64,000 bases of DNA, taken from Mytilus edulis. Lineage: Eukaryota. Under the pieces are notes generated by a model. The model saw only the letters and a list, made by a program, of their open reading frames with translations, was not told the DNA's origin and ran no database searches. Both the position numbers and the translations under genes were made by a program. This document shows, piece by piece, positions 40,792 to 60,762 of this stretch (position 1 is the first letter of the stretch; every line of letters starts with the position of its first letter). The stretch spans positions 18,600,001-18,664,000 of the forward strand of contig NC_092350.1 in the NCBI RefSeq assembly GCF_963676685.1, written 5' to 3'.

Positions 40792-42069
40792 TTAATGTAC
40801 GTTTTCATTCAGAAACCATTTACTTTCCTTTTTTCCATGCGTCAATTGTGGTTCCTGGTGGCGTTTTTTGACAAAATGATCATATAAATAAAAAGTATCT
40901 TCATGTTCGTCTTTGATGGATGCAGATGTTTCGTCTCGTTTGAAAGTCTTGGGAGAGCTATCCTTATCATCGGGTGATCCGTTCGCCATGAAACCAACCG
41001 CTTCTATATCTTTTGATTTATATGAAATACAGTTAGGACTTGTTTTTTCATCTACATTATTTTCCATATGTATTGTGTCTTTATCATCAGATTTGTTTTT
41101 CAAGGACACCTTTACCTCTAATCGCTGGGCAAGTTTATCCATTTCTTTCATGATATCGGTCTTTAAATGATCTTTCCATCCTTTAGATTGATTTTTAATC
41201 AGACTTTCAAACGGATTTTTTTTGTTCTTTATAAAATCCATCAGTGACTGGTCCAACACGATATTAAACATCATGTTATCGGTTTCCTCATTTTCCGTCA
41301 CCTCGAACATTTTTCGCTGAGCGTGAATCGTTTTCTTGATTCTTTGGAGTGCAAAAAAGACCTGTTTAGCATTTCCATGGTATTTTGCGGTGGTAAGAAA
41401 TCTTTCATTCTGCACAATATTCTGCTTGAATCCGGACACGGTGTCTATTTGTTCTTGTAATGGTTTAACTTTAGACACAAATGTTTTAGAAACATCGGTT
41501 TTTATGTTAGGCTTCATCTTCTCTAGCTTGTCAATAGCTTTGTTAATACAGCATTCGGCTTCTGAAATAATTTTGTCTTTTTCTGCATTTATTCTTTCTA
41601 CCTGTTTTATTTTATTTTCTACTAATTCTGTCATTACTCTTTCTAAACAATTAAGATCTTTCTCCACTACTACATCGATGTTATCATCTGCTAACATCTC
41701 TACAACTTCATCTACAGATTTAATATTGAGACATTGACGGTGATTCTCTGCCAAACAGATAATGCAACACATCTCAGAATGGTCTAAACAAAAAACTTCG
41801 TAAAACTTCCCTGAATGTTCATCACAAGGTTCGTTCACCTGGTGGTCGGATATTTTTGGAAGTTTCTGACCCTCTGAAATTGTCACGACTGTGTGTGTTC
41901 CGGAATCTTTCAGACGGCTGTGAAAACTTTTCAGGCATCCATTGCACAACAACTCGTTACTATGCTGACACCACTTGATTGCTTTTACACGAGCTCCAAC
42001 ACGTGAACAAGGATCACAGTTGTAGATGATGTTATCCTTCGATTTTGAATCCATCATCGAAGAGAACAT
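40792..42069 (-). CDS. RING-less TRIM-like protein (B-box1, B-box2, coiled coil), 425 aa, intronless
   Basis: CDPC..WCQHS..LC..C..H B-box1, CDEH...FCLDH..CCIIC...H..C B-box2, heptad region; clear paralog of 59269-60762. Confidence 0.8.
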   Translation of the reverse strand: MFSSMMDSKSKDNIIYNCDPCSRVGARVKAIKWCQHSNELLCNGCLKSFHSRLKDSGTHTVVTISEGQKLPKISDHQVNEPCDEHSGKFYEVFCLDHSEMCCIICLAENHRQCLNIKSVDEVVEMLADDNIDVVVEKDLNCLERVMTELVENKIKQVERINAEKDKIISEAECCINKAIDKLEKMKPNIKTDVSKTFVSKVKPLQEQIDTVSGFKQNIVQNERFLTTAKYHGNAKQVFFALQRIKKTIHAQRKMFEVTENEETDNMMFNIVLDQSLMDFIKNKKNPFESLIKNQSKGWKDHLKTDIMKEMDKLAQRLEVKVSLKNKSDDKDTIHMENNVDEKTSPNCISYKSKDIEAVGFMANGSPDDKDSSPKTFKRDETSASIKDEHEDTFYLYDHFVKKRHQEPQLTHGKKESKWFLNENVH

Positions 42070-42313: not shown

Positions 42314-43151
42314 TATCGAAGTACTTTCGTTTTGAATAAGGGAGATTATTTAAAATACACGTGTGCAAGATTGATTAAAAATCGTTTTCAACTGTTGGTT
42401 ATGATTAGAATTTCCCACTGAAAGTCATTTAAGATTCCGATGGCACTATGCATTGACATTTTAAAAAAACCATCCGTAGTGTAAAGCCATCTCTTTTTTT
42501 ATTGTTTGTAAATTAAGACAAATGTTTTTTTGTAAACCGACTATGTTGTATCTGCATAATTAATATTACATGGAATTAGATAAAAAAAAAAAACACACAC
42601 CAAAAAAAACAACATCATATTTTTATTTTTTTAAATATTTTTTTCAACCTAGGATTATTAGATTCCGACGGCAAGACATTGATAGGAAAGAAAATCTAGG
42701 CAACAACTTATTTTTTATTTTTTTTAGGTTTAGGTTTCTGCTTAAAACAGCAGCAATATGTTGATCACTACTTACAAATAATGGAGGTATGGTTAACGAT
42801 CAGTGACAGTATTTCATATTCATGATTATAAAACAAGTTATTTCATGACTGAATTTGCTAGATCTTTTGCTTAGCAGACGCTCAAGTTTCGGATTTCGAA
42901 TGTTTTATCTAACTTGCATGATTTCAAACAATTACATCATTTATCCTTCTGAGTACATTAGTAAATACATCTTGTTGATTTACCAGGGAAACGACAAATC
43001 CCATGTACTTTTAGGTGTCAGACCACCAATTAAAAATCCCTATATATGCCTTTAAAGTCTTCTAAGCGAGGGGGAAAAAAACTGACCTACGAACAGATGT
43101 ACTCCAAAAATAACCCCTGGTTTTCTGGAAATTTTAAATTATTATACTGTG

Positions 43152-43571
43152 AGTAGTATGAAATGGGGTCAGTCCCCCACCAAAACCCCACCGGAAGTCA
43201 CGTCACAGCTAAGCCTCTTAACTATGACGTAGTATCCGGTCTATAATCTCTTAATCCCCTTAACTGGTACTTAACATCCTGGTTATAATCCTCTTAACTG
43301 AAGTGGATTAATCTCTTAATCCTCTTAACTGCTACTTAACATCCGGGTTATAATCCTCTTAACTGAAGTGGATTAATCTCTTAATCTTCTTAACTTGTAC
43401 TTAACATCCTGGTTATAATCCTCTTAACTGAAGTGGATTAATCTCTTAATCTTCTTAACTTGTACTTAACATCCTGGTTAAAATCCGGTGGGGGAAAAAA
43501 TTAACGGACATGTTTTTTCGATCCCCCCTACCCTCCTACGTATTATCTTGTAAACGTGGCATACACGTTGA
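43152..43571 (+). repeat. Polinton left TIR, with an internal 65-bp tandem repeat (~3.7 copies)
   Basis: Reverse complement of 55881-56299; tacttaacatcc recurs at 43268, 43333, 43398 and 43463. Confidence 0.97.
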
Positions 43572-43700
43572 GACATGCACGTTAACATCCTAAAGTTTAA
43601 TCTTGTAAACGTATAATCTAAATGTAAAAAGTTTATAAACTAAGAAAAACGTTTACTATATAGCATACATCATTATAGTAATTTCATAAGAACAAACAGT

Positions 43701-44009
43701 ATGAATCTCCAAAATTTTAATATGTATACACTTTTAAGAGAAAGAGAACTAACAGGGAAGATCAGACGATCACGAAGAGATCCCAAAAAGACTGCAAATT
43801 TGATAAGGAACAGGGTTGATAAACTTCATCATGAAGAACTATCTCGGTGTCCAGTAGAAACATGGCTTCTGAAAAACGGTTACATTGTTTGTATTCTATA
43901 CAACTTTGAACACCACCCAGAGTTTATTGAAGATCTATATTTTTGTGGATGTTACTTTGATGCAGTGTTAGCAGACTACAAGTTTATGGATCCTGTCAAC
44001 TACCAATAA
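43701..44009 (+). CDS. Polinton small hypothetical protein, 102 aa
   Basis: ATG-initiated ORF downstream of the TIR, with TATA-like actatatag at ~43655. Confidence 0.6.
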   Translation: MNLQNFNMYTLLRERELTGKIRRSRRDPKKTANLIRNRVDKLHHEELSRCPVETWLLKNGYIVCILYNFEHHPEFIEDLYFCGCYFDAVLADYKFMDPVNYQ

Positions 44010-44365
44010 GAAAAAAATCCATGTATATCATTTACATGTGTACAACGGTCCTTTTAAGGACCAACAAATCATTCAAAAAGAGTCTATTATTGTTGTACAT
44101 GATCAGTTCGTTTTTCCTCTCCAACGAATACGAAATATCTACAAAAGGTTCACAACTTGTTTATTTTCGAAGAAAAGAAAACTAGATTGTACATTTTATT
44201 ACTTTCAATTGATAAACATACATTATTTCAACTAAAACAACAATATGATAACAAAAGTTTTCATATTGAACATTGGAAATTACATCTTCTTAATGAAATT
44301 CTACTATAAAATATAGACATATATATATATTTTGTGTATTTAAAAAAAAATCATTTTGAGTTAAC

Positions 44366-44596
44366 ATGTTAGAGAGGATGAGCACAGAAAACCTTCAAAC
44401 AAAGTGGTGTTTTTTCGGACAGAATGTACCAAAAGCAGAGATCGTGTATTTTTGTCAGATGATAATAGTTTTCATAATTGTTATTGCGGCAGTTGTTAAT
44501 TTATCAACACAAAATGGGAGTATAGAACTATGGGTTAGTTTATTAAGTGGTTGTACCGGTTACATTTTACCAAACCCTTCTATAAATAAAATATAA
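44366..44596 (+). CDS. Polinton small membrane protein, 76 aa (two hydrophobic segments)
   Basis: IVYFCQMIIVFIIVIAAVVNL and LWVSLLSGCTGYILPNP; TATA at ~44305; AATAAA overlaps the end of the ORF. Confidence 0.75.
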   Translation: MLERMSTENLQTKWCFFGQNVPKAEIVYFCQMIIVFIIVIAAVVNLSTQNGSIELWVSLLSGCTGYILPNPSINKI

Positions 44597-44756
44597 ATGA
44601 GATTCACATAAAAAGAAGGGAGGAAAAAAATGTTCGAGTAACCCTCCTTCTAACCACGTGACCGAAACGTTCACCATACGTTTCGTTTATCTCTTAATGA
44701 ATCATCATGAACAATTTAAGCCGCTACCACAACTATAAAAGCACACAGTTATATCA

Positions 44757-45017
44757 ATGGCACAGGCACAGGTTGATTTATCCAAAGAGGTGTACGGTTG
44801 TGACTTTGATCACTTGCATACTGATTTATTAAAGAAACAGATCGAGTGTTTAATTGATGAAACAACAAAAGTGGTGGTGAAGAAAAGAGGAAAACATACT
44901 CGAATACAGCTTGTTGTTAAAGGGAAAAAGATTCTGATCACTAAAGAAAATTGGACGAAACTGTGTTATCTAAAGGACAGCATCTTATTTCTTCATTCAT
45001 TTATAGACGAACACTGA
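44757..45017 (+). CDS. Polinton 86-aa protein, possible PC4-like ssDNA-binding fold
   Basis: TATAAAA at ~44734; KVVVKKRGKHTRIQL..KGKKILITKENWTKL resembles the PC4 beta-strand plus Kx(I)xLTxxxWxxL pattern. Confidence 0.6.
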   Translation: MAQAQVDLSKEVYGCDFDHLHTDLLKKQIECLIDETTKVVVKKRGKHTRIQLVVKGKKILITKENWTKLCYLKDSILFLHSFIDEH

Positions 45018-45024
45018 TAGTACA

Positions 45025-45429
45025 ATGGTGGCAATTAAAGTTGGTATGGAAAAAAGACTGCTTTCAACTATATTACTGTTTTCTTTTGCTGAATTATTGG
45101 ATGAAATGGTGCAACAATTATCAAAGAAGTTTTGTCAGGGATGCAAAGTGGAACATGGATCACAACATAGACACGAATGTTTGATGGATAGTGAACTAGA
45201 TAAACTCGAAAAACATTTTGATCAGGCGTTCTGTGAGTTTAAATACAGTCACATACTAGGAAAATACAGAGAGAATGTGAGAACATTGACCTTGGAAAAT
45301 AGTGTCGTTTTAAACTTTTTCATTCTTCATGTGTTGTTCATGGACACGCTTCGATCAGAAAAAATGAAAGTGAGTGTTTATAATTTAATGGAAAGGAAAT
45401 TAAAACTTGAAGGACGTTTCACACAGTAA
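45025..45429 (+). CDS. Polinton 134-aa protein with CxGCxxxHxSQxxHxC putative Zn-binding motif
   Basis: CQGCKVEHGSQHRHEC; AATAAA at ~45467. Confidence 0.75.
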   Translation: MVAIKVGMEKRLLSTILLFSFAELLDEMVQQLSKKFCQGCKVEHGSQHRHECLMDSELDKLEKHFDQAFCEFKYSHILGKYRENVRTLTLENSVVLNFFILHVLFMDTLRSEKMKVSVYNLMERKLKLEGRFTQ

Positions 45430-45559
45430 TATTGTATTTTGTGTAAATATATGTATATTTCATTGAATAAATTTATATTGATGTGGAATTTTTCGTTGTG
45501 TATTTATTTTCTGGTAAAGATATAAAATGTTATATCATTTCATAAGTTTTCGTATTCAT

Positions 45560-45752
45560 TCGTATATTTCCGTATGTATATATATTTCCGGTAGTATTCG
45601 GAAACATTCGTTTATTTCCGAATGTATAATTATTTCCGGTAGTAGTCGGAAACATTCGTTTATTTCCGAATGTAAAGTAATTTCCGATCATTTCCGGAAT
45701 CGTTCGTTGATATCTGCTTTTTCATTCCGGAATTATTGGGTTGATTCCGTAT
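45560..45752. repeat. TTCCG-rich repeat cluster (48-bp unit x2 plus degenerate copies)
   Basis: tatttccggtagta.tcggaaacattcgtttatttccgaatgta at 45583 and 45631; about 11 TTCCG/CGGAA cores. Confidence 0.85.
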
Positions 45753-46006
45753 TTTACTTCATTGGTTACATTTTATTGTGTACTTCATTTCTTTTTTCTG
45801 GTTATGTATTTTGTTTCTTTTTTCTTTCTTGATGGTGATGTATTTTGATTCTTGTTTCACTCTCTGGTGGTATATTTATTTGTGAAATAAAATAAACCAA
45901 AATAATTAGAAACATCAGTGTATAAAACAAACACATATCTCGAAAAATAAACACAACGACATAAGACAATTAAGGTGTAGACAACAAACAAACAAACAAA
46001 AAAACA

Positions 46007-46672
46007 ATGTGTGAAGACCAGGAGAAAGTGCTTTTACCATTTCAGTCACCGTGTTGTATACAAATAGTTGGACCTACTCAGTCAGGAAAAACCATGCTTA
46101 CATATAAAATACTAGCTCAATCTGAATACCTATTTACAAAAACACCAAAGAAAACCATTTATTGCTACTCTGCATATCAGGATTTGTTTTCAGAGATGGA
46201 GAGGAAAATTGAAAACATAACTTTTCACGAAGGTTTACCAACTAGTGAGGAAATTGATAAATGGTCAGAAAATAAAGAACATATGATTCTTTGTCTTGAT
46301 GATTTATTGTGTCAAGCTGCAAACTCTAGTGATGTTTTAAATCTTTTTACCGTTAAATCTCATCATTGTAACATATCAGTTTTGTTTTTGATGCAAAATC
46401 TTTTCCCTCCTGGAAAATGCATTCGTACTATTTCGTTAAATGCGACATACATAATCTGTCTTAAAAACCAACGTGACAAACACCAGTTATCAGTATTAGG
46501 AAGGCAGATTCTCCCAGGTCAATTAGACTATTTCATTTCAGCTTATGAAAAGGCAGTTTCTTTAATATATGGATATATTATTATTGATTTGTCAACACAC
46601 ACAGATAAAAAATATTTATTGAGAACAAAAATTTTCAAAGGAGAAGATCCAGTAATTTTCGTTCCGAAATGA
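46007..46672 (+). CDS. Polinton DNA-packaging ATPase (A32/FtsK-HerA-like), 221 aa
   Basis: Walker A GPTQSGKT, Walker B ILCLDD, SHHCNISV..LMQNLF, RTISLNATY. Confidence 0.95.
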   Translation: MCEDQEKVLLPFQSPCCIQIVGPTQSGKTMLTYKILAQSEYLFTKTPKKTIYCYSAYQDLFSEMERKIENITFHEGLPTSEEIDKWSENKEHMILCLDDLLCQAANSSDVLNLFTVKSHHCNISVLFLMQNLFPPGKCIRTISLNATYIICLKNQRDKHQLSVLGRQILPGQLDYFISAYEKAVSLIYGYIIIDLSTHTDKKYLLRTKIFKGEDPVIFVPK

Positions 46673-46983
46673 GTAAACAAGTTTTAGCCCATGTACATTT
46701 TTTATCACTTTTAATTTCATGTGAGGAAGAACAGAAAATTGCATTGTTGAAGACCATGAACGATAAACAATTTCAACTTTTAGTTGAATGTTTTTTAAAT
46801 GTGTTATGTGGGGTATTTCCGCTTAGTCAATCAGATAAAAAGAAACTCATGAGATATAAAAACATTATTCGGAAAATAACAGATAGAGAGACAACACGTA
46901 TTCAAAGAAAAAAATTGTTACTTAAATATCGTAACATTATTTCTATCATTGTTAAACCAATACTTGATACAATTTCAAAATGA
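46669..46983 (+). CDS. Conserved Polinton hypothetical protein, 104 aa, basic and helical
   Basis: ATGA overlap with the ATPase stop; LVECFLNVLCGVFPL...KKKLMRYKNIIRKI pattern typical of the ORF following the Polinton ATPase. Confidence 0.8.
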   Translation: MSKQVLAHVHFLSLLISCEEEQKIALLKTMNDKQFQLLVECFLNVLCGVFPLSQSDKKKLMRYKNIIRKITDRETTRIQRKKLLLKYRNIISIIVKPILDTISK

Positions 46984-47573
46984 CGAAAGAAATGATTCTT
47001 CTGCCAAAACATAGATATGAAAGTATTATACGAACAGAAAACACTGAAAGCGATAAACAAACTAGTGCTAAGGAAGAAATTTCACCCCAGGAGGATATTA
47101 AAACAGAAAAAGATAGTTCAGATGATTTGAACACTTTGATCGAGTTAACCATACCAGTGAAAAACAGAGAAAAGGCAAAAACACTATTGCAATTTCTTCA
47201 GAGTCAGTCTACAATAAGTTGGAACAAACAAGGAAAAGTTAAGATCAACAACGAAACTGTACCAAACTCTCATATTGTTGACTTATTGCGGGATGTTGTC
47301 ATTCCTTATGGATGCAAACAACTACCAAGTGGACATGAAATATTTTATGATTTTCTTAAAAATATTCACATACCTATGGGACTAATTTCAAATAGAATGA
47401 GAAAACAACTGGTTCAATCTGATATACAAACAACAGAGGAAAATGAACAATTAGCTGAAAGTGAACCAGAGAAAAATAAGAAGAGGAAGATTAATAAACT
47501 TTTTGTTAGGAGGGAACTCTCGAGACTGTTTGAAGAAAAACCTAAACTAAAATGGAAAAGATTCAAACTATAG
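46980..47573 (+). CDS. Conserved Polinton hypothetical protein, 197 aa
   Basis: ATGA overlap with the preceding stop; KAKTLLQFL...ISWNKQGKV.IN...VPNSHIVDLL motif; AATAAA at ~47621. Confidence 0.8.
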   Translation: MTKEMILLPKHRYESIIRTENTESDKQTSAKEEISPQEDIKTEKDSSDDLNTLIELTIPVKNREKAKTLLQFLQSQSTISWNKQGKVKINNETVPNSHIVDLLRDVVIPYGCKQLPSGHEIFYDFLKNIHIPMGLISNRMRKQLVQSDIQTTEENEQLAESEPEKNKKRKINKLFVRRELSRLFEEKPKLKWKRFKL

Positions 47574-47956
47574 CATCATTACTAATGAACAATTGATAAA
47601 ATATGTTATTTTCTATGTCAAAATAAAGATTGATAAAAAAGTGTTTTTTGGTTTTTCTTTAAATTTTATTTCCATGTTACAATTTAAAAACTAACTTGAG
47701 TTGTTCCATATACTTTAATGTAAAAAATAAATCATTAAAAAAAACAGCAGAAAAAAACAATAAAAAAAAACAACAACAAAAATACTTTCAATGTACAAAA
47801 AAAACATAATATATATTTTTTTTTCATTTTCAGGTACAACCCCAATATTATACACTTTGATTTGATAAAAAAAACCTATAAAAACTATTCTTATGATTAC
47901 TTTTAATAAGACTCTTGTAGTTGTTAGAAGTAACATCTTATCAAAATAACCTGAGT

Positions 47957-49093
47957 ATGAATGAGGAACTAGATTCTCTCCTGAGTAAATACTATTATGA
48001 CGTTGGAGGACCAGCTTCATATGCTTCTGCCGAAAAACTATATCACATTGTAAATGCAGAGGGCAAAAAAGTTGGAAGATATAAAATAAGACGGTGGTTA
48101 AATTCACAAGATAATTACAGTTTACAAAAAACACCTCGTCGTTCTTTTAAAAGAATAAGAGTTTACACTACGGGGATGAATAATTTGTGGGATGCTGATT
48201 TAATGGACCTAAAACAATTTTCAAAAGAAAATGAAAATTTCAAATACGTATTAGTTGTTGTTGATTGTTTTTCACGCTATCTTTGGTTACAACCATTGAA
48301 AAATAAAACGGGAGACGAAGTCACCTCTGCATTTAAAAAGATTTTCACTGAGGCAAAACCAGAAAAAATTCGAACAGATAAGGGACAAGAATTTCTAGCA
48401 AAAAAGACACAATCGTTATTTAAAAGTAACGGTGTCCGACATTTTTCGGCTCAAAATGAACTTCATGCAAATTATGCTGAAAGGGTCCTACAAACTATAA
48501 AGAATAAAATTTTTCGCTTTTTCACAAAGAATAGAACTCACAGATATATTAACAACTTGCAAAATTTTGCAAAAAGCTATAATGGTACTCCACATAGAAG
48601 TTTACAAAACATTGCACCTAAAGATGTTAATTCTGTCAACGAAAGTGATATCTGGGGGAAAATGTATTTAAGTAAAACAGAGAAGAAACCAAAAGAAATA
48701 AAAGTACAAACAAACAAAAAGAAACGGAGGAAAAAACAATTCAAATACAAAATCGGGTCTTTAGTTCGACTGTCAAATATTGCTCATATTTTTGATCGAT
48801 CCTATAGCCAAAGATGGACGGAAGAGATATTCAAAGTGGTGCAAAGATTCAGACAACAAAATATTGATCTTTACAGGCTTTCAAATATAAAAGGAGATGA
48901 ATTTATAAGGGGGACCTTTTATGATAGTGAGCTCCAAAGAGTAGAGAAAGATGAAAATAGTCTTTGGATAATTGAAAAAATTATAAAGAAAAGAAAAAGA
49001 CGAGGAAAAACTGAGTACTTGGTTCGTTTTCAAGGGTGGCCTCCTTCGTATGACGAATACATACCAGCAGAACAAATTCAATCTTTATCATAA
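47957..49093 (+). CDS. Retroviral-like (rve, DDE) integrase with C-terminal chromodomain
   Basis: WDADL (D), RTDKGQEF (D), AER (E), YNGTPHRSL; chromodomain WIIEKIIKKRKRRGKTEYLVRFQGWPPSYDEYIP; first ATG at 47957. Confidence 0.97.
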   Translation: MNEELDSLLSKYYYDVGGPASYASAEKLYHIVNAEGKKVGRYKIRRWLNSQDNYSLQKTPRRSFKRIRVYTTGMNNLWDADLMDLKQFSKENENFKYVLVVVDCFSRYLWLQPLKNKTGDEVTSAFKKIFTEAKPEKIRTDKGQEFLAKKTQSLFKSNGVRHFSAQNELHANYAERVLQTIKNKIFRFFTKNRTHRYINNLQNFAKSYNGTPHRSLQNIAPKDVNSVNESDIWGKMYLSKTEKKPKEIKVQTNKKKRRKKQFKYKIGSLVRLSNIAHIFDRSYSQRWTEEIFKVVQRFRQQNIDLYRLSNIKGDEFIRGTFYDSELQRVEKDENSLWIIEKIIKKRKRRGKTEYLVRFQGWPPSYDEYIPAEQIQSLS

Positions 49094-49518
49094 TGGAACA
49101 TATAATTTTCATTCGAAGTGATCAATCAGATGCATATTACCCTAATAATTCACCGTTTAAGTTCAAAGTGTGTTTAAATGAAGTTTTACAATTACAAGGT
49201 GAATGGAAACTGGGGATATTAGATTTTTACATTGATCAAAAAGTTACAAAAAAGAACAATCATCAATTATACTTGTTTTGTGATGTATGCAGTGGAGTAA
49301 ATGTTTTCCCTAATATACAATATTCACTTTTGAGAAGAATATTTCCCACGGATATGAGTACATGGAATTATATTTTTTCTTTTCCAATATATTTACCAGT
49401 AAAGAAAAACGAAATTCAAGTCTTAGAATTTCTTATAAAAGACGAACACGGAGAAAACGCTTCATTTTTGAAGAATAATTTGTCGTTTACACTACAATTT
49501 ATACCAAGCTTATTTTAG
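49093..49518 (+). CDS. Minor capsid (penton, PX-like single jelly-roll) protein, 141 aa
   Basis: IRSDQSDAYYPNNSPFKFKVCL...LQGEWKLGILDF N-terminal motif, LYLFCD, YLPV...I..LEFLIKDEHG C-terminal motif; TAATG overlap with the integrase. Confidence 0.85.
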   Translation: MEHIIFIRSDQSDAYYPNNSPFKFKVCLNEVLQLQGEWKLGILDFYIDQKVTKKNNHQLYLFCDVCSGVNVFPNIQYSLLRRIFPTDMSTWNYIFSFPIYLPVKKNEIQVLEFLIKDEHGENASFLKNNLSFTLQFIPSLF

Positions 49519-49525
49519 CGCAGAT

Positions 49526-49927
49526 ATGACAAATACTGATAAAATGTACATTCCTAATGTTAATCAATGGACAAGATATTATCAGAATGTAGTTAGTGGT
49601 CAATCAAATGCTTACGTAAATCATATGAAATCTGGATATAACAAAGGATCGCAATCGGGATCATTTATGATACCAATTTCGAATAAATCTTATCCAATTC
49701 GTGCAGAAAAAGAAAACAATTTTGTTGTGCGTTTAGTGTCACCTAGTGAACAAATTGTAAATCAAGCAAAAGAAGAGATAAAAATTGACGATGAGAGTAT
49801 AAATAAAACGGACAGAAAGAGAAAATATCATCATTCGCCACAAAGCAGAGGAGGTGAAAAGAAGCCGAAGAAATCGAAAAAAGATAAAACTGTTAAAAAA
49901 CATAAAGGGGATATATTTTCAACATAA
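49526..49927 (+). CDS. Putative virion core/DNA-binding protein, 133 aa
   Basis: Lies between the penton and MCP genes; WTRYYQ N-terminus, Lys/Arg-rich tail ending GDIFST; TAATG overlap with MCP. Confidence 0.75.
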   Translation: MTNTDKMYIPNVNQWTRYYQNVVSGQSNAYVNHMKSGYNKGSQSGSFMIPISNKSYPIRAEKENNFVVRLVSPSEQIVNQAKEEIKIDDESINKTDRKRKYHHSPQSRGGEKKPKKSKKDKTVKKHKGDIFST

Positions 49928-51240
49928 TGTCCTTGTTAACAAAAGAGAATTTTATTGAAGCACAACCGTCAGAGTTACAGATTTTTGAGATACCCCCATA
50001 CCAAGTAGGTGTTGAAAGTATAACATACGAGGAATGCAGACCTGTTAGTCAAATAACCGCTTACAATCCTATAGAATTCGATCTATGTGCAAACAATGGT
50101 ATGGACTATATTGATCTTAAAAGATCAAAACTATACGTGAAATTAAAAGTGAAAAAAGCAAATGGTGAGGATTTACAAGATGGCGATACGGTAGGACCTG
50201 TGAACTTATTTTTACAGTCGCTTTGGTCGCAATTGGATGTTTATATACAGGGACAAATGGTAACGTCTAGTAATACGTATTACCCGTATAAATGTATGAT
50301 GAAAACGTTACTGCAGTATGGCCAGGACGCAAAGAGTACACAATTATCTTCTAGTTTATACTTAAAAGATAGATATGGTCACATGGATGAAATATCGACA
50401 AACACTGGACTGTATGAACGCAGAAAATTTATTTCTAATTCAAAACCATTAGAAATGGAGGGACCAATTTTTTCCGATATCTTTGAGATGGATAGATACC
50501 TGTTAAATATGTTATCCCTTAAACTAAAACTATACCGCAACGATCCAAGTTTTTGTTTGATGTCTGGAGAAATTGATACCAACTACCATATTTCTTTGGA
50601 AGATGTCGTGATCAAGCTTTGCAAGATCAGACCTAACCCAGCTATAATTGTCGCTCATTCAGAAGCTTTAAAGACAACAAATGCTAAGTATCCTTTCACA
50701 AAAACTATGATGAAAAATTTTACAATCATGCAAGGAAGCACCTCGTTAATCGTAGAAAATGTTTTCCAAGATGTGAAACCGAAAAGTATTGTGCTCGGAT
50801 TGGTTTCTTCAACTGCTATGTCTGGAGCATATACAAAAAACCCATTCAACTTTATGAATTATGATTTAAAACAGGTGACTTTGTTTTGTGACGGAATACC
50901 AGTTGATGGCATACCACTCAAACTTGATTTCAACGAGAATAGTGGTGCAACGAACGTTTCCCCCTATGTAAAAATGTTCGAAACACGAGGAAAGTGGATG
51001 TTGGATACGGGGAATGAAATAACACGGGCTGAATTCAACAATGGATATACACTTCTATGCTTCAACTTAGAACCATTCTTTTCGGATACCAAATATCTTT
51101 CACTACTGAAGCAGGGAAAAATACGTTTGGAATGTCAGTTCGGTACGCCATTACCAGAAACAGCTGCCTTACTGATTTTAGCTGAAAACTATGGATACTT
51201 TGAAATAACTGAGAATCGACAAATAAAGATTGAACACTAA
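49927..51240 (+). CDS. Major capsid protein (PY, double jelly-roll), 437 aa
   Basis: SELQIFEIPPYQ, PIEF, YIDL..SKLYVKLKV, PVNLFLQSLWSQLDV, YPYK, NPFNF, F.NGYTL.CFNL motifs of the Polinton MCP. Confidence 0.93.
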   Translation: MSLLTKENFIEAQPSELQIFEIPPYQVGVESITYEECRPVSQITAYNPIEFDLCANNGMDYIDLKRSKLYVKLKVKKANGEDLQDGDTVGPVNLFLQSLWSQLDVYIQGQMVTSSNTYYPYKCMMKTLLQYGQDAKSTQLSSSLYLKDRYGHMDEISTNTGLYERRKFISNSKPLEMEGPIFSDIFEMDRYLLNMLSLKLKLYRNDPSFCLMSGEIDTNYHISLEDVVIKLCKIRPNPAIIVAHSEALKTTNAKYPFTKTMMKNFTIMQGSTSLIVENVFQDVKPKSIVLGLVSSTAMSGAYTKNPFNFMNYDLKQVTLFCDGIPVDGIPLKLDFNENSGATNVSPYVKMFETRGKWMLDTGNEITRAEFNNGYTLLCFNLEPFFSDTKYLSLLKQGKIRLECQFGTPLPETAALLILAENYGYFEITENRQIKIEH

Positions 51241-51912
51241 CATTCCCATGTAAATTGAACTTATCATGACTATAACTGTTTGTTTTTATTGTGTACATCT
51301 ATCTTTTTTGTAATGTGTGTTTTACTAATAAATATATTCAAATAAACGAAAACAAACAACTGCGTTCATTGATACATTATGTTTTATTTCAATCAGACAG
51401 GATGCAAAAAAAAAAAAACAGGAATAAAGAAAATATATATGTAAAAATACAATACATGAAAAAAGTAACCCAATTACCCTCAAACATACTAACGAAAACT
51501 ATATACACTAGTTTTAATAAAAAATATGATGCATCTACAATCTCCCTCACTATATGTAAAAATCATATTTAAATCACCACAAATTTTGATATACAAAAAA
51601 ATCCCCACTTCGTTCTCTTGTTATAAATACAAAAAGAAAAACCAAAACAAAACAAAACAAACAACCCCCCCCCCCAAAAAAAAAATTAATGAATATTTAA
51701 ATTTATAATTAAATACATATAAACAATAACCCTCAAATGAACAAATAATAACATCCCTCAATATATGTTAAATTAGTATTTAAATCACCACAAATCTTGA
51801 TTTAGAAAAAAAAAATTCAACAAAATAATATCACAAATACGAAATAGTTATAACAAATAGAAAATAACAAAGAAGATTTGAAATGTCTTTAAACGTTTTA
51901 CATGATGAATGT

Positions 51913-54900
51913 TTATATGTTATCTTTATGTCCAAAGGCTCTCGTTGTCACACCATCATTTAAAATCCATCTTTTATCATCAAAAGGAACTAATGATTTT
52001 TTATTAATAGTTTTGGAATATAAAACATGGTTTTCGCTTCTTATTATATTCATTTCAGAACGTGTAACAGTTTTATCGAAAAGACAATTTTTATACATTT
52101 CATGTTTAAGTTTTCTGGATGCAGTTTTTGTGACTCCTTTTGCAGTATGCTTTTCTCCACCTTCAAAAGAAAATGAATACATCTTCGATCTCAGTCCAAC
52201 AAATTCACTTATTGGGGTTCCACTTGTTTCATCCTTGAATTTGCCTATTACTTTTTTATTTTCGGTGTCATGTAAAAAATGTTCTGGTGGATAATCACTC
52301 GTATCGTACATATCTTGATATTGATGCATATCTTCATACACATCTTCCGTTTCAACGTGATATAAAAAGCTATCAGTATCAGAAAAACACACACGAATTT
52401 TATCACCATACAGAGATTTCATATGGTTATAATGGAAATCGTACATCAAAAACTTGGATAAGTCTAAAATGCAAAAACCTACATATATTGGTTGTTTCAT
52501 CAAAACATTCACACGTTTTTTCTCAACTGCCACCAAATGTTCGTTAAATATTTTGCAAGATGCGTAGGATGGTTTAGCTGTTTCTTTATTAAGTTTCTCT
52601 TCCGTGTGACAAAGTTTCACATCTTTATGCTTGCGTGTATTGAGGAGAGTCCGACCAAAAATTGAATTATTCATCAGCTTATATAAACATTTCTCAAATT
52701 CATTCTTTGCAATTTTCCTTTTTTCGGTGTTAAAGTCTATGTACTTCTTCAACCAGGGGCTTTGTTTAAACTTGAGTACTCTGTGTATCTTTTTGATCTT
52801 CATTCCTAACTCTACGTATAGTTGTAAGTTTCTATAATGCACTATGTATTTTTCCTTGTCGTATAGGTTAGGAACGAGTTTTTCAATCTTTGTTAAACAT
52901 TGTTTTCCAGTTAAATTTTGTAATAATTCCTTTGAATATGGAGATAAATGTTCTACTTGAATATGTTTTCTTTCTGGAGCTAAGGGAAAATCCGAATGAG
53001 AAGAATGAAGTGACGAAGGATATTCAAGGTCAACTTCGAAAATGTATCCGTCTGAACCGTCAGCTTTTAATTTTGTGATATCTAATTTTATTTTCTCCTC
53101 CTCGGTAAGCCAGTTGAAATGACCATACGGAAGACATTGAGACATGCTCCAACCATATAAATTATTTGCGTCTAAATAAGATAAATAGGAAGTAGGTTCA
53201 GTTGGTTCATACGTATCGAATAAGTATGGATTGTTTGCTTTAGCATATCGATGAAAAATACTAGATACACCGCCTCGTATTCCCTTCTCTACAAACAGCA
53301 TCATATCTATATCAGTGATTAAATCGAGTACAATTCCAGTTTTCTTCAGCATGGCACTCCAACTAAATCCGGGGGTGGTGAAATAATGACACGGATCCAA
53401 ATCATAGTCGTGTAAAGAAATGTCTCTAAATTTTTCAAAAACATCTGCCAAAAGAGCTACATCCATTTTAAGATACACATCGGAGTATTCCCCCAATGTT
53501 TTTACTTTCAGTTTGTCCCACACTGTTTGCGCAAATTGATAATCTTCATCAGATATGTGAGTGTCTCCTAATTTGTTAAAAAAATCTTCTTTGGATGGTA
53601 AACAAGGTTTTTCCAATTTCTGCTCGGTATCGACATAATCATAGGGGAATACTCCTTTTCGTAGCAATAGAGAAAATACATCTGGATCCGGAAAAGTTTT
53701 AGATAAGTAATTGAAATGTTTTTGTCCTTCGTCAGCTAGATTTTTTGTTAAAGTTGCCAGTGAACTGTTTAAAAATTGCAAAGAATCGATAAAGCGGAGA
53801 TTTCCTATAGAAAATGACATATATTTTTCTTTGTTGTGTGGAATAACAGTGATGTCTTGTTCCTTAAACTTTCCTATTTTACTCATGATGAGATTTGCAT
53901 CAAATCCTTTCAAATTATGAATAACAACAGGTATAAATTTCGGTATTTTGATCTGTAAATTGCAGTTATTACAAGAAATGCCACGAATGGACCCAGTCAC
54001 GTGATCGTGTTCCTTGACTTTGTAATTTTTGCTGCTGAAAGCTTTTTTACATACATAACATTTTTTGGCATATTTGTAGTCTAATTTATCATACTCAGTT
54101 ATTATCATTGGCTCGATGCGGCTAAGTATGTCTCTAATTTCTTTCTCCTCTTCAAGAAGATGACGGATAAAGTTCTCCACAACATCAGGTCCACGGTATA
54201 TGACGGGTGGTTTGTCGTATCGCTTATCAATTGACACTCTTTGATATCCAAAACTGTACGGTTCCATTTGTTGGTATGTAGTTGTACTTGACGTGTTTGG
54301 ATTCGGATGACAAGTATCGACTTTCCTTGTTAAACACTCAAAATCAGCATAGATTACAAACGGAATTCGGGCGGTTTTCGCATATTCTTTGAATTCCAGA
54401 ACTTCTCCCTCCTTGGGAAGTGTAATTTTCTGAAAATCAAATTTTCCACAGTCTGCTTTATGCCTCTCTAGTTTGCATTTATCAGTAAATCCTTGCAAGC
54501 AAAGATAACAAAAAAAATGTTCCTCACGATGTTTCTTTGTCCTCGATAAAAACCTGTTAAAGTTGTTTATCAGTACATAATGACTTTTGTTGTTTTCTTT
54601 TAAATATAATATATTCACATGATGACAGAAGGTTTTCTTTGTGATGTATAACGGGTAGATTTCTCCTTCTTCGTATCCAAAAATGTTAACTGAAATAGTG
54701 GTATTCTGTTTTTCGAATTGTGATATTTGAGATAACGGAGTGGGATACTCGATACCAGTCATGTTAACTGAGTTAACAAATGGAACATAATTCTCTACAT
54801 TTTCTGGATTTTGTTGAAAGTTATGCATACTGGAAAGAACAGTCCATAAAAAACATTTGTTGTCCAAGTTCTGAATGTTGAGTATACAGTTCGATCTTTT

Positions 54901-55815
54901 GAGTGATGTTGGTAGTTCTAAATAACTACCTCCTTTTAATGGTTTGTACTTTGTGACGCACAGATCAAGTTGTAAAACCTCTTCAAGTTGCCATCCACTC
55001 CCATTCTTGATGAATTCTTCGAAAGAAATGAATATTTTTTGAAATCCTTTATTCAACTCGTGAGGTATTTCACTAGCACCAGATTGTAAAATGGTACTCA
55101 CTTTAGTATTGAAATGCGGTTCAGCTTCGGCGTATTTGCCATCTGGTGAATATTTAATCATTCTTACATGTACACTCATATAAAACTTTATATTGTTTTT
55201 AAGTAGTCTGTCCTCTAATATTTGCGCAATATCCACTTGTTTTTCTTTGAAAAATAACATCAAGTCATATCTTTCTTCATTGTTGCTGGGTTGTAATTGA
55301 ATATTTTCCACACCATCGTTCAGAGCTGTTGTTGTTAACGATCTTTTCTCTCTTGCATTGCGTACTCGTTCCTCGGGAAGTTGGCCAACATCTTCTATCC
55401 TCTGGCGTTTACGTGGGGGTTGTATGTCGTCTTCCTTCTGTACGTTTTTCTTTACATCATGTTTTCTCTTCATATGTTTAGTTAAAACATCTTTTCTTTT
55501 CGTGGTGAAACCACAATGTTCACATTCATAGTTTATATTCGAATGGTTCTGTTGGTGTCGAATTAAATGATCTTTTCTTGCATACCTCATACCGCATGTT
55601 TGACACTCAAAATTTGATACATTATCTTCATTTGTTACACTGCCATCTTTTCCCATAGTAGATTGATCAAGTTGTTTTTCAGTTGGATTTTGCTGCTTTA
55701 CTGATTGTAAGACTGCATTAAAATCCTGCGCTGACAGTTGCTGTAACTTCTGTAACACATCTTGTGGAATAACTTTTACCAGTTGGTCAATCATGTGTTG
55801 GTTATAATTTTCCAT
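51913..55815 (-). CDS. polB: Protein-primed family B DNA polymerase (pPolB), 1300 aa, with two N-terminal C2H2 fingers, terminal-protein region, OTU-like domain and EndoVII/HNH insert
   Basis: Exonuclease motifs YADFEC, HNLKGFD, YLKMDV; polymerase motifs YLDANNLYG, KLMNNSIFG, SDTDS; C2H2 fingers CQTC..HQQNH and CEHC..HMKRKH; HNH-type CYVC...HDH..G..RG..CNNCN. Confidence 0.98.
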   Translation of the reverse strand: MENYNQHMIDQLVKVIPQDVLQKLQQLSAQDFNAVLQSVKQQNPTEKQLDQSTMGKDGSVTNEDNVSNFECQTCGMRYARKDHLIRHQQNHSNINYECEHCGFTTKRKDVLTKHMKRKHDVKKNVQKEDDIQPPRKRQRIEDVGQLPEERVRNAREKRSLTTTALNDGVENIQLQPSNNEERYDLMLFFKEKQVDIAQILEDRLLKNNIKFYMSVHVRMIKYSPDGKYAEAEPHFNTKVSTILQSGASEIPHELNKGFQKIFISFEEFIKNGSGWQLEEVLQLDLCVTKYKPLKGGSYLELPTSLKRSNCILNIQNLDNKCFLWTVLSSMHNFQQNPENVENYVPFVNSVNMTGIEYPTPLSQISQFEKQNTTISVNIFGYEEGEIYPLYITKKTFCHHVNILYLKENNKSHYVLINNFNRFLSRTKKHREEHFFCYLCLQGFTDKCKLERHKADCGKFDFQKITLPKEGEVLEFKEYAKTARIPFVIYADFECLTRKVDTCHPNPNTSSTTTYQQMEPYSFGYQRVSIDKRYDKPPVIYRGPDVVENFIRHLLEEEKEIRDILSRIEPMIITEYDKLDYKYAKKCYVCKKAFSSKNYKVKEHDHVTGSIRGISCNNCNLQIKIPKFIPVVIHNLKGFDANLIMSKIGKFKEQDITVIPHNKEKYMSFSIGNLRFIDSLQFLNSSLATLTKNLADEGQKHFNYLSKTFPDPDVFSLLLRKGVFPYDYVDTEQKLEKPCLPSKEDFFNKLGDTHISDEDYQFAQTVWDKLKVKTLGEYSDVYLKMDVALLADVFEKFRDISLHDYDLDPCHYFTTPGFSWSAMLKKTGIVLDLITDIDMMLFVEKGIRGGVSSIFHRYAKANNPYLFDTYEPTEPTSYLSYLDANNLYGWSMSQCLPYGHFNWLTEEEKIKLDITKLKADGSDGYIFEVDLEYPSSLHSSHSDFPLAPERKHIQVEHLSPYSKELLQNLTGKQCLTKIEKLVPNLYDKEKYIVHYRNLQLYVELGMKIKKIHRVLKFKQSPWLKKYIDFNTEKRKIAKNEFEKCLYKLMNNSIFGRTLLNTRKHKDVKLCHTEEKLNKETAKPSYASCKIFNEHLVAVEKKRVNVLMKQPIYVGFCILDLSKFLMYDFHYNHMKSLYGDKIRVCFSDTDSFLYHVETEDVYEDMHQYQDMYDTSDYPPEHFLHDTENKKVIGKFKDETSGTPISEFVGLRSKMYSFSFEGGEKHTAKGVTKTASRKLKHEMYKNCLFDKTVTRSEMNIIRSENHVLYSKTINKKSLVPFDDKRWILNDGVTTRAFGHKDNI

Positions 55816-55880
55816 ATTGAATGAATGATTGATACTAGTTTACATTGAATTATATACTAAGGAATGTAAACGTGGATAGT

Positions 55881-56299
55881 TCAACGTGTATACCACGTTT
55901 ACAAGATAATACGTAGGAGGGTAGGGGGGATTAAAAAACATGTCCGTTAATTTTTTCCCCCACCGGATTTTAACCAGGATGTTAAGTACAAGTTAAGAAG
56001 ATTAAGAGATTAATCCACTTCAGTTAAGAGGATTATAACCAGGATGTTAAGTACAAGTTAAGAAGATTAAGAGATTAATCCACTTCAGTTAAGAGGATTA
56101 TAACCCGGATGTTAAGTAGCAGTTAAGAGGATTAAGAGATTAATCCACTTCAGTTAAGAGGATTATAACCAGGATGTTAAGTACCAGTTAAGGGGATTAA
56201 GAGATTATAGACCGGATACTACGTCATAGTTAAAAGGCTTAGCTGTGACGTGACTTCCGGTGGGGTTTTGGTGGGGGACTGACCCCATTTCATACTACT
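55881..56299 (-). repeat. Polinton right TIR
   Basis: Reverse complement of 43152-43571, with only a few mismatches visible. Confidence 0.97.
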
Positions 56300-56631
56300 A
56301 CTGTGGAGCGCATTAATCCTTATTCTTAAATGAAAACTCATAAGACAAGTAAATTGTGGCTCAAAAATGTCTAAATATATTTCTCTTTCGACAAAAGTTT
56401 CATTTCTGCAAATTTGTTGGTAAGTTAAGTAAAAAACACTATTTTGTGTCAGAGTAGGGCTATTAAATTAAAGGGAGTAATTGGTGGTATGAAACTTTTA
56501 AAATCTGTTTGGAGGTTGTAATTGGTGGTGTGACACCTTTTAAAGTCTCATTTGGTCAACTTGTGGCCGGATGATAAAACATGTAACTTAGTATAAAAAA
56601 ATACCAATTATTTTTGATACAAAATATCGTT

Positions 56632-59268: not shown

Positions 59269-60762
59269 TTAATGCACATTTTGATTATTAAACCGTCTCT
59301 TTTCTCTCTTTCCACTTTTCCGTTCTGGTTTTTTGTCTGGTCTTGAATTCGGTTTGACTGAGTCTGAGTGCTCGGTTAAATGTGTTAAATCGTCTTCTAA
59401 AGTATCAGGTTTGCTATCCTCGTCTGCAATTTCTGATTCCATCACGAAAGCATTTGCTTCAATTGCTTCAGTTGATTCATAATCAATACAGCTCGGATTT
59501 ATGCCTGCCTTTAAATTATATTCCGTGTCTCTATTTTCAGATCTGTTTTGCAAAATCCCCTTTGTATCGAACCGCTCGGCAAGTAAATTCAGTTTTTTCA
59601 TGATTTCTGTCTTTGAAAGATCTTTCCACCCTTTAGTTTGCTTTCGATTCAGAATTTCAAACGGAATTTGTTTGTTCTTAATAAAGTTCAACAGTGACTG
59701 GTCTTGCACAAGTTCAAACATGTTGTTATCCGTTTCATCAGTAGCCGTCTCCTCGAACTTTTTTCGCTGAGTGTGTAGCGTTATCTTGATTTTTTGCAGA
59801 GTGAGAAATACTTTTTTAGCATTTCCTTGGTCTTTCACGTTGATAAGAAAGCTTTCGTTCTGCACAATACTTTCATTTAATCCAGAAAATATGTCTATTT
59901 GTTCTTGTATTGGTTTAATTTGAGACAAAAATGTTCTAGAAACATCGGTTTTTATTTCAGACTTCATTTTCTCTAGCTTGTCAATGGCTTCCTTGATGCA
60001 GCGATCAGATTCTGAAATTATTCTTTCTTTTTCAGCACTTATTTTTTCTATCTGTTTCTCTTTCTTTTTTATCAATTTTGTCATTACTCTATTTAAACAA
60101 TTAAGATCTTTGATCACTGCCTCATCGATTTTATCTTCTACAAACATCTCAACAACTTTCTCTACAGTTTTGATATTTACACAATGGCGGTGATTCTCTG
60201 CCAAACAAATAATGCAACACATTTCAGAATGGTCTAAACAAAACACTTCGTAAAACTTGTCCGTATGTTCATCACAAGGTTCATTTATATTATAGTCGGG
60301 TAGTTCGGGAAGTTTCTGACCCTCAGAAATTGTCATGACTTTGTGTGTTCCAGAATCTTTCAGACGGTTGTGGAAACTTTTTAGACATGTACTGCACAGC
60401 AACTCTTGACAGTGCTGACACCAATTCGTTGCTTTCACATCATCTCCAATACGTGCACAAGGATCACAGTTGTAGGTGATTTCCTCCTTCGAATTTGAAT
60501 CCATCATCGAAGAGAAGATACGATGATTGAAAGGTAACTGACTTGCAAAACTTGCAACGGACTTAGAATCTGGAACAGTGACAGACTCTCTGCATACCGG
60601 ACATACAAAAGCAGTTTTATTGTTAATCTTTTTTGCCGTAGTTTCAATATAAGTTTGCAAACACGCTTCACAATATGTGTGCGAACATGGCAAATACCTT
60701 GGTTTCTTAAACTCTTCTAAACATATTGAACAATCAAATAGTGTAGCTGTTTTCCTAGACAT
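59269..60762 (-). CDS. Intronless TRIM E3 ubiquitin ligase (RING, B-box1, B-box2, coiled coil), ~497 aa
   Basis: C3HC4 RING CSIC...LPCSHTYCEAC...CPVCR, LPFN linker, two B-boxes, coiled coil, low-complexity tail with no recognisable C-terminal domain; first in-frame ATG at 60762. Confidence 0.93.
   Translation of the reverse strand: MSRKTATLFDCSICLEEFKKPRYLPCSHTYCEACLQTYIETTAKKINNKTAFVCPVCRESVTVPDSKSVASFASQLPFNHRIFSSMMDSNSKEEITYNCDPCARIGDDVKATNWCQHCQELLCSTCLKSFHNRLKDSGTHKVMTISEGQKLPELPDYNINEPCDEHTDKFYEVFCLDHSEMCCIICLAENHRHCVNIKTVEKVVEMFVEDKIDEAVIKDLNCLNRVMTKLIKKKEKQIEKISAEKERIISESDRCIKEAIDKLEKMKSEIKTDVSRTFLSQIKPIQEQIDIFSGLNESIVQNESFLINVKDQGNAKKVFLTLQKIKITLHTQRKKFEETATDETDNNMFELVQDQSLLNFIKNKQIPFEILNRKQTKGWKDLSKTEIMKKLNLLAERFDTKGILQNRSENRDTEYNLKAGINPSCIDYESTEAIEANAFVMESEIADEDSKPDTLEDDLTHLTEHSDSVKPNSRPDKKPERKSGKREKRRFNNQNVH

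What the first reader, a model, noticed from the sequence alone, without database searches (positions are those of the whole stretch)
43152..56299. Compact, young, capsid-encoding Polinton with no adenain maturation protease
Seen: perfect TSD, near-identical TIRs and all core ORFs unbroken. However, none of the ORFs resembles the adenovirus-type cysteine protease, and the remaining gaps (45430-46000, 47575-47950, 51240-51910) are AT-rich non-coding DNA. The penton is minimal (141 aa), and the ORF before the MCP lacks the Gly-rich QxGxG amphipathic segment I would expect in protease-processed Polinton core proteins. Established: canonical animal Polintons are about 15-20 kb and encode the protease. 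Inference: a streamlined lineage with protease-independent (or OTU- or helper-dependent) virion maturation; coordinated loss of enzyme and substrate motifs argues against a simple deletion.
Basis: partly seen in the sequence, partly recalled or inferred. Interest (0 to 1): 0.75.

Follow-up and report, generated by a model that had tools for sequence, protein, structure and literature searches.

The report
Protease-less Polinton clade in mussels
A young, multi-copy virus-like transposon and its sister family have lost the capsid-maturation protease gene carried by their relatives in the same genome, and the predicted cut site in their core protein is gone too, while their capsid gene stays under purifying selection, so they likely build particles without that maturation step.

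Summary
Confirmed. Window 43152-56299 is a 13,148-bp Polinton with a 6-bp target duplication, 376-bp terminal repeats and open core genes. A profile of 12 Polinton proteases from the same genome finds no protease in it, in its 13 sister copies, or in 10 copies of two related families; 16 of 17 more distant elements carry one right behind the capsid gene. The protease-less families form one capsid clade (SH-aLRT 100) nested among protease-bearing ones, so this is most likely one old loss, not a deletion in this copy. The QxGG/QxGxG motif of the core protein (11 of 13 readable protease-bearing families; 99 of 134 database homologues) is absent in all three families. The capsid gene stayed under purifying selection (shared synonymous/replacement 28/5 versus private 14/19, p=7e-4) and folds as a double jelly-roll. 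Not supported: 'compact' and 'minimal penton' (both ordinary), or vOTU compensation. Protease-less Polintons with capsids are on record (4 of 72 in Krupovic 2014), and PLVs lack the protease, so this is a new variant. No particles shown. No earlier scan note on this was seen (8 of 33 word hits shown).

The parts
43146..43151 (.). left target-site duplication (ACTGTG)
43152..43527 (+). left terminal inverted repeat, starts AGTAGT, holds 65-bp tandem units
43701..44009 (+). 102-aa ORF of unknown function; homologue (42%) only seen in a family-B-type copy; not protease-like
44366..44596 (+). 76-aa hydrophobic (predicted membrane) protein; also in family B (70%) and in a protease-bearing element (49%)
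44757..45017 (+). 86-aa ORF conserved in family B (about 50%); function not tested
45025..45429 (+). 134-aa Cys/His ORF; a similar 145-aa ORF occurs in protease-bearing families
46007..46672 (+). A32/FtsK-like packaging ATPase, 221 aa
   Evidence: Pox_A32 E 9e-4, below Pfam's cut-off; 37-65% to other families
46669..46983 (+). 104-aa conserved protein, PM by position
   Evidence: name inferred from gene order in PMC8097293
46980..47573 (+). 197-aa conserved protein, PZ by position
   Evidence: name inferred from gene order
47957..49093 (+). retrovirus-type integrase with chromodomain, 378 aa
   Evidence: rve E 9e-14, Chromo E 7e-8
49093..49518 (+). minor capsid protein (penton), 141 aa, predicted single jelly-roll
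   Evidence: model pLDDT 94.7; Z 10.5-13.5 to capsid chains incl. mavirus penton
49526..49927 (+). basic core protein (PW by position), 133 aa, lacking the QxGG/QxGxG motif of relatives
49927..51240 (+). major capsid protein, 437 aa, predicted double jelly-roll, under purifying selection
51241..51912 (.). AT-rich spacer with a 211-bp-spaced duplication, at the position where relatives carry the protease gene; no remnant found
51913..55815 (-). protein-primed DNA polymerase B, 1300 aa, with zinc fingers, vOTU Cys/His motifs and an endonuclease-VII-like insert
   Evidence: Pfam gave no polymerase family hit at E<=0.1, the call rests on motifs and 41-76% identity to other families
55924..56299 (-). 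right terminal inverted repeat, ends ACTACT
56300..56305 (.). right target-site duplication (ACTGTG)

Best explanation
This is a recently inserted, self-copying Polinton whose lineage lacks the adenovirus-type maturation protease gene and the QxGG motif of its core protein, and which likely still packages its DNA in a double jelly-roll particle with an uncut core protein. Shown: the gene is missing from the slot behind the capsid gene in three related families, the motif is missing in the same families, and capsid, penton, ATPase and core genes have been kept under selection since the families split. Inferred: the gene was lost once on the stem of the clade; the motif was the protease's cut site and decayed once unused; the polymerase copies the element from its protein-primed ends (its vOTU domain would still free the terminal protein, as proposed for all Polintons); the integrase inserts it with a 6-bp duplication; the ATPase fills the capsid; and uncoating would rely on something other than proteolytic priming, as in Polinton-like viruses, which lack the protease.
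For: Protease absent from 14 of 14 family-A, 9 of 9 family-B and 1 of 1 family-C copies, present behind the capsid gene in 16 of 17 more distant elements. Capsid tree: A, B and 9 further database clusters (P0004, P0006-P0010, P0012, P0013, P0015; P0005 is family B) form one clade, SH-aLRT 100, inside protease-bearing families; ATPase, integrase and PM trees also pair A with B at 95-99. In the polymerase-bearing B copy only 303 bp separate capsid and polymerase genes, too short for a 155-170-aa protease. Motif: strict QxGG/QxGxG in 11 of 13 readable protease-bearing families, near-variants in the other two, none in A, B, C (counted by eye from the printed sequences); 99 of 134 database homologues strict, 13 relaxed, 22 none. 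Selection: A versus B capsid dN 0.25 with saturated dS, penton 0.35/1.53, ATPase 0.31/1.72, core 0.50/2.56; among A copies capsid variants shared by two or more copies are 28 synonymous to 5 replacement, private ones 14 to 19 (p=7e-4). Folds intact: capsid Z 29.3 to a PBCV-1 capsid chain (rmsd 3.0, 362 aligned), penton Z 13.5 (rmsd 3.2, 135 aligned). Recent activity: 9 of 9 copies with both ends in hand have perfect, different target duplications and TIR identity 96.7-99.7%. Feasibility: PLVs lack the protease (PMC4642659, passages).
Against: No particle, protein or cleavage data. That QxGG is cut by this protease is inferred from its likeness to adenain sites in 10.1101/341131 (passages), not tested. 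The loss is one event, so enzyme-motif covariation has a sample size of one; P0187 and P0192 in the same core clade keep QxGG, P0298 resembles family A and keeps it, and other motif-less groups exist elsewhere in the tree, all without gene context. One protease-bearing family (O) lacks the strict motif. The selection test within family A is significant only for capsid and polymerase, 2 of 12 genes, and the shared variants may come largely from one diverged subfamily. The one raw-read RNA run gave 110 reads, mostly with the first mate on the + strand, so capsid expression is not shown. No free viral contig was found.
Confidence: 0.55

Rival explanations
1. The clade borrows the protease in trans from co-resident protease-bearing Polintons.
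For: Very young protease-bearing families share the genome: 21 capsid matches with an identical score in one family and 8 in another, each with a protease behind the capsid gene. Some database members of the clade keep QxGG. Family B has spawned polymerase-less copies, so trans-complementation occurs in this lineage.
Against: The only conserved candidate cut site found is gone in A, B and C; penton, PM and integrase show no such motif in any family scanned, and the ATPase only two unrelated chance-like matches. A borrowed enzyme would have no known substrate.
Confidence: 0.15
2. The particles are kept for use inside the cell or between neighbouring germ cells (protecting and delivering the replicated DNA to the integrase), with no infectious extracellular stage, which is why entry-priming cleavage became dispensable.
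For: No free viral contigs in viral or metagenome collections beyond one near-identical 3.7-kb metagenome contig; named near-identical proteins all come from one host genus; the core protein's basic tail is shorter than in most protease-bearing relatives.
Against: The collections hold few animal-virus contigs and also gave no protease-bearing relatives, so the blank says little; the clade has at least 8 further families at 60-68% capsid identity in unnamed assemblies, which fits spread between hosts.
Confidence: 0.2
3. Another protease took over: the polymerase's vOTU domain or a host enzyme cuts the structural proteins at new sites.
For: The vOTU Cys and His motifs are present in the window's polymerase; PMC11161782 section 8 proposes that vOTU is an active protease.
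Against: The Cys motif and the upstream Gly-rich linker look the same in 5 protease-bearing families printed, so nothing marks a new role; no new shared GG-type site appears in A and B structural proteins.
Confidence: 0.07
4. A hidden, spliced or very divergent protease is still encoded.
For: The 102-aa ORF has no known family; RNA depth was too low to exclude splicing.
Against: Profile searches through stops and hhalign are negative with strong controls; no splice joint among 110 RNA reads; the B spacer is 303 bp.
Confidence: 0.03

Closest known systems
Animal Mavericks/Polintons (class Polintoviricetes; vertebrate layout in PMC8097293)
   Same: pPolB, RVE integrase, ATPase, capsid, penton; order int-mcp-pw-Mcp and atp-pm-pz; (AGT)2//(ACT)2 ends; 6-bp duplication; TIR 376 bp against a reported mean of 402; length within the reported 12.7-24.6 kb.
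   Different: No pro gene at the end of the structural module, and no QxGG in the PW-position protein.
Protease-negative entries of Krupovic et al. 2014 Table S1 (PMC4028283): Polinton-1_DGr, Polinton1_SM, Polinton-N1_NV, Polinton-N1A_NV
   Same: Capsid, penton and ATPase present, protease not found: 4 of 72 listed elements.
   Different: Single reference sequences, not shown there to be clades, with no substrate or selection analysis in the passages and table seen; two look non-autonomous by their names (my reading). Their relation to this clade was not tested.
Polinton-like viruses (PLV, Aquintoviricetes; PMC4642659)
   Same: Minimal morphogenetic module of capsid, penton and ATPase without maturation protease: what this element likely works like.
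   Different: PLVs have a distinct capsid type and mostly no RVE integrase; this element has the integrase and a capsid nested among protease-bearing animal Polintons, so the likeness is convergent.
Adintoviruses (PMC8502044)
   Same: OTU-bearing pPolB, integrase, FtsK-like ATPase, hexon and penton.
   Different: That survey used adenain as its bait, so it could not collect this clade; adenain is absent here.

Membership tests
Polinton/Maverick | protein-primed family B polymerase | tested here: met
   1300-aa ORF with exonuclease and polymerase motifs (motif names recalled) and vOTU Cys/His motifs, 41-76% to other families; Pfam gave no polymerase-family hit at E<=0.1
Polinton/Maverick | retrovirus-type (RVE) integrase | tested here: met
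   rve E 9e-14
Polinton/Maverick | terminal inverted repeats, AGTAGT ends, 6-bp target duplication | tested here: met
   reference motif in PMC8097293 section 7
Polinton/Maverick | double jelly-roll capsid, single jelly-roll penton, packaging ATPase | tested here: met
   Z 29.3; Z 13.5; A32 E 9e-4, under the curated cut-off
Polinton/Maverick | cysteine maturation protease (typical, not universal: 74% of 72 elements in PMC4028283) | tested here: not met
   typical core gene but polymerase and integrase are the universal signatures, so membership stands
Polinton/Maverick | forms virions | not testable with these tools
Adintovirus as collected by Starrett et al. | adenain gene | tested here: not met
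Polinton-like viruses (PLV) | no maturation protease | tested here: met
Polinton-like viruses (PLV) | no RVE integrase (nearly all) | tested here: not met
Polinton-like viruses (PLV) | PLV-type capsid protein | tested here: inconclusive
   no PLV capsid was in the tree; the capsid is 32-48% identical to and nested among protease-bearing Polintons of the same genome

The most novel reading that the evidence does not exclude
An active animal polintovirus clade, spread over mussels and other unnamed hosts, that has reverted to a PLV-like protease-free virion: enzyme and cut site lost, capsid still selected, with its own polymerase-less satellite family and occasional extrachromosomal amplification (run X12). 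It would be a natural experiment on what the Polinton protease cuts and whether an animal-infecting double jelly-roll particle needs it.
Probability: 0.4. Interest if true: 0.7.

Novelty: new variant of a known kind. Interest (0 to 1): 0.5.

Why it matters
The conserved protease is one of the main arguments that Polintons make virions, and two large surveys used it as bait or filter (PMC8502044; 10.1101/2023.08.22.554363), so protease-less clades are under-counted by design. Here the comparison within one genome points to the likely substrate (the QxGG site of the PW-position core protein) and shows that capsid genes can stay under selection long after the enzyme is gone. It gives a direct biochemical test of Polinton maturation and a living example of the step from Polinton to PLV-like module that Yutin et al. 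left open.

Tried and rejected
Protease remnant in the spacer: none. Small size and small penton as signs of streamlining: rejected. Module swap at the protease slot: considered because of the ATPase tree, rejected since ATPase, integrase and capsid trees are compatible once unrooted. Rearrangement as the necessary cause: not needed, one protease-bearing element (C1:25.3 Mb) has the same capsid-versus-polymerase convergent layout. Second cut site in PZ: QxGG-like in 3 of 7 protease-bearing families, absent in A and B, too variable to use. Single-sequence search with the core protein found 1 cluster. Viral-contig scans gave 0 relatives; the metagenome scan gave 1 locus, 100% identical, 3.7 kb. 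ESM Atlas gave no usable hit for the 102-aa ORF or the core protein. RNA: 110 reads in X24, no joints, no support for expression; X15 covers spacers too and may be DNA. Empty-site evidence from the right flank was not readable because the flank is repetitive. The core-protein tree is a quick tree on 90 columns with 70 of 141 forks open; 16 of 150 hits not covering both anchors were dropped before the motif count. The capsid tree used 64 rows: 20 from this genome, all unfused hits P0004-P0017 and every third hit thereafter; 11 chimeric or partial hits were left out. Complex prediction was not used. Earlier scan notes: nothing by sequence or by the full word list; 8 of 33 word hits and 1 same-genome note were shown and concern other features.
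Full report
Observation. The element spans window 43152-56299 (13,148 bp). It begins AGTAGT, ends ACTACT and is flanked by ACTGTG on both sides. The terminal repeats are 376 bp and 99.2% identical. Twelve genes are open: four small ORFs, ATPase, two conserved ORFs (PM and PZ by position), integrase, penton, core protein (PW by position) and capsid on the + strand, and a 1300-aa polymerase on the - strand. The names PM, PZ and PW are inferred from the gene order in PMC8097293 section 7. The capsid model (pLDDT 84.5) matches double jelly-roll capsids (best Z 29.3, rmsd 3.0, 362 aligned); the penton model (pLDDT 94.7) matches capsid chains of PBCV-1, an adenovirus, Sputnik and the mavirus penton (Z 10.5-13.5).

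Is the protease really missing? A search of the host genome with the capsid gave 97 matches: 14 near-identical (family A), a group at about 57-74% (family B), one broken copy at 80-94% (family C) and many at 48% or less. One of the distant elements supplied a control protease, which with its relatives hits Pfam Peptidase_C5 (5 of 5). A profile of 12 such proteases found nothing at E<10 in the window's stop-to-stop fragments, and at best E 3.4 in loci of families A, B and C. With whole frames read through stops, the best non-control row was E 2.2 against 1e-33 and 3e-25 for two controls. hhalign of the 102-aa, 134-aa and 197-aa ORFs and the first 300 residues of the polymerase gave 0.1-0.5% probability, control 99%. 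The genome-wide protease search scored 150 of 245 candidates and listed none inside a family A, B or C element.

Sister copies and relatives. The 13 other family-A copies align at 96.9-99.8%; 11 run from capsid into polymerase, one of them across a private 3.8-kb insertion, and two are rearranged there. Each of the 13 has at least one stop, frameshift or interruption in the stretches fetched. Nine copies with both ends in hand are 12,758-13,657 bp with perfect and different target duplications. Of 27 other elements mapped, 16 of the 17 distant ones carry the protease behind the capsid gene; the exception (C11:45.16 Mb) has nothing Polinton-like after its capsid gene and its closest relative has the gene. 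None of 9 family-B copies or the family-C copy has it; one polymerase-bearing B copy was covered from end to end, and its capsid-polymerase spacer is 303 bp. In the capsid tree A, B and nine further database clusters form one clade (SH-aLRT 100) among protease-bearing families; ATPase, integrase and PM trees also join A and B. One loss on the stem is the simplest reading.

The substrate motif. In the core protein, between a conserved aromatic helix and an F-M-I-P-like strand, 11 of 13 readable protease-bearing families have QxGG or QxGxG and the other two a near-variant; families A, B and C have none, and the stretch is shorter, most of all in B. A profile search of 1.84 billion representatives gave 229 homologues; of the best 150, 134 cover both anchors, and 99 have the strict motif, 13 a relaxed one and 22 none (a first, cruder count left 50 unclassed). 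A, B, C and several database rows form a group with support 90, next to motif-bearing rows. Equal contig lengths suggest that three of these motif-poor core proteins lie with clade capsids (P0197/P0006 clusters, P0219/P0007 clusters, P0210/P0008), which is indirect. Against a tidy story: P0187 and P0192 in the same group keep QxGG, P0298 is close to family A by eye and keeps it, and two other motif-less groups exist. The motif resembles the adenain sites given in 10.1101/341131 (passages); that it is cut is inferred.

Selection. Between A and B synonymous sites are saturated or nearly so (dS 1.5 or more) while dN is 0.19-0.56 for all ten genes compared, 0.25 for the capsid. Among A copies, capsid variants shared by two or more copies are 28 synonymous to 5 replacement, private ones 14 to 19 including 2 stops (p=7e-4); the polymerase gives 80/46 versus 21/44 (p=6e-5); the other ten genes have too few variants and are not significant. 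So the structural genes were maintained long after the protease went.

What is ordinary. Pentons are 134-153 aa in 12 protease-bearing elements with a full-length ORF. Intact vertebrate Mavericks start at 12.7 kb, and Table S1 of PMC4028283 lists several 10-14-kb elements with all four virion genes. The vOTU Cys motif is shared with protease-bearing families.

Activity. RNA evidence is weak: 110 reads in one raw run, no splice joints. One low-coverage DNA run shows a relative excess of the element; contig depth is not a copy number and this is a lead only. No free viral contig was found.

Mechanism. Most likely (0.55) the lineage replicates and integrates like any Polinton and packages its DNA in a particle whose core protein is not cut. 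Shown are the gene loss, the motif loss and the selection; inferred are the particle, the role of the motif and protease-free uncoating. Rivals are particles used only inside or between cells (0.2), a borrowed protease (0.15), take-over by vOTU or a host enzyme (0.07) and a hidden protease (0.03).

What is known. PMC4028283 (passages; supplement 1 in full; its file S5 could not be read) found the protease in 74% of 72 Polintons, and lists four with capsid, penton and ATPase but no protease. PMC4642659 (passages) states that PLVs lack it and leaves open whether they are derived Polintons. 10.64898/2026.06.19.733378 (passages; supplements not seen and may list such elements) says most group 1 members have it and group 2 is variable. 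PMC8502044 (abstract, passages, section 8) and 10.1101/2023.08.22.554363 (passages) selected elements by the protease. PMC11161782 (passages, section 8), PMC8097293 (passages, section 7), 10.64898/2026.10.13.758929 (passages) and PMC11296320 (passages) gave background. Nine searches (mostly listings and abstract starts) showed no paper on a protease-less animal Polinton clade or on this motif; the library lacks most subscription papers, and repeat databases were not searched.

Verdict. It is a new variant of a known kind, with isolated precedents. Interest 0.5; 0.7 if protease-free infectious particles are shown.

Noticed in passing
G000:C12:57744368-57755716, C7:6967249-6978069, C8:21143495-21152809 and four more (L057-L062, L065-L068, L133-L136): A polymerase-less derivative of family B, 7 copies, 9-11 kb where uninterrupted, with terminal inverted repeats of about 2 kb that include PZ, PM and the end of the ATPase gene; it keeps integrase, penton, core, capsid and one whole ATPase. 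Perfect target duplications in 3 of 4 copies with both ends matched. Looks like a capsid-keeping non-autonomous family made by copying one arm onto the other end.
   Followed up: partly
G000:C11:61900910-61917460 (L063, L064, L142) versus window 43152-56299: Polymerase-bearing family B has the same three gene blocks as family A in circularly permuted order (structural block, polymerase, accessory-ATPase block), with unrelated terminal repeats.
   Followed up: partly
window 46196-55850 and 56210-56299, runs X12 and X22: In X12 the element's contigs have word depth 46-101 and the terminus 142 while single-copy host flank is unassembled; X22, recorded as the same sample and with deeper host repeats, has depth 0 at the terminus and none of the words. 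Scaled by hand to a host repeat at 61072, X12 has about 13 times the terminus depth of X1 and X11. Contig depth is no copy number; a lead for amplification or for different individuals only.
   Followed up: partly
window 49927-55815 in sister copies L036, L042, L044, L048, L056: The capsid-polymerase half is about 97.3-97.7% identical in these copies while the left half is 97-99%; shared variants cluster in capsid and polymerase, suggesting a recombinant subfamily.
   Followed up: no
G000, C1:72449977 and 20 more places; C5:5026208 and about 7 more: Two very young protease-bearing Polinton families: 21 capsid matches with identical score, and about 8 near-identical ones.
   Followed up: no
L069:4913-5233 and relatives: Several protease-bearing families carry a BIR (inhibitor of apoptosis) gene, E 6e-23; none was matched in families A or B.
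   Followed up: no
window 40792-42069 (-) and 59272-60762 (-): The element sits between two single-ORF B-box/RING (TRIM-like) host genes that share a 78%-identical stretch.
   Followed up: no
G000 matches, e.g. C10:34609612, C8:82380517, C5:77540871: Many weaker protease-like matches lie in open frames of 400-670 aa and are not next to a capsid match; their elements were not examined.
   Followed up: no
database proteins P0220, P0229, P0239, P0249, P0259, P0264 and P0272, P0278, P0286: Two further groups of core proteins without the strict motif, apart from this clade (support 95 and 97): candidates for independent protease losses.
   Followed up: no
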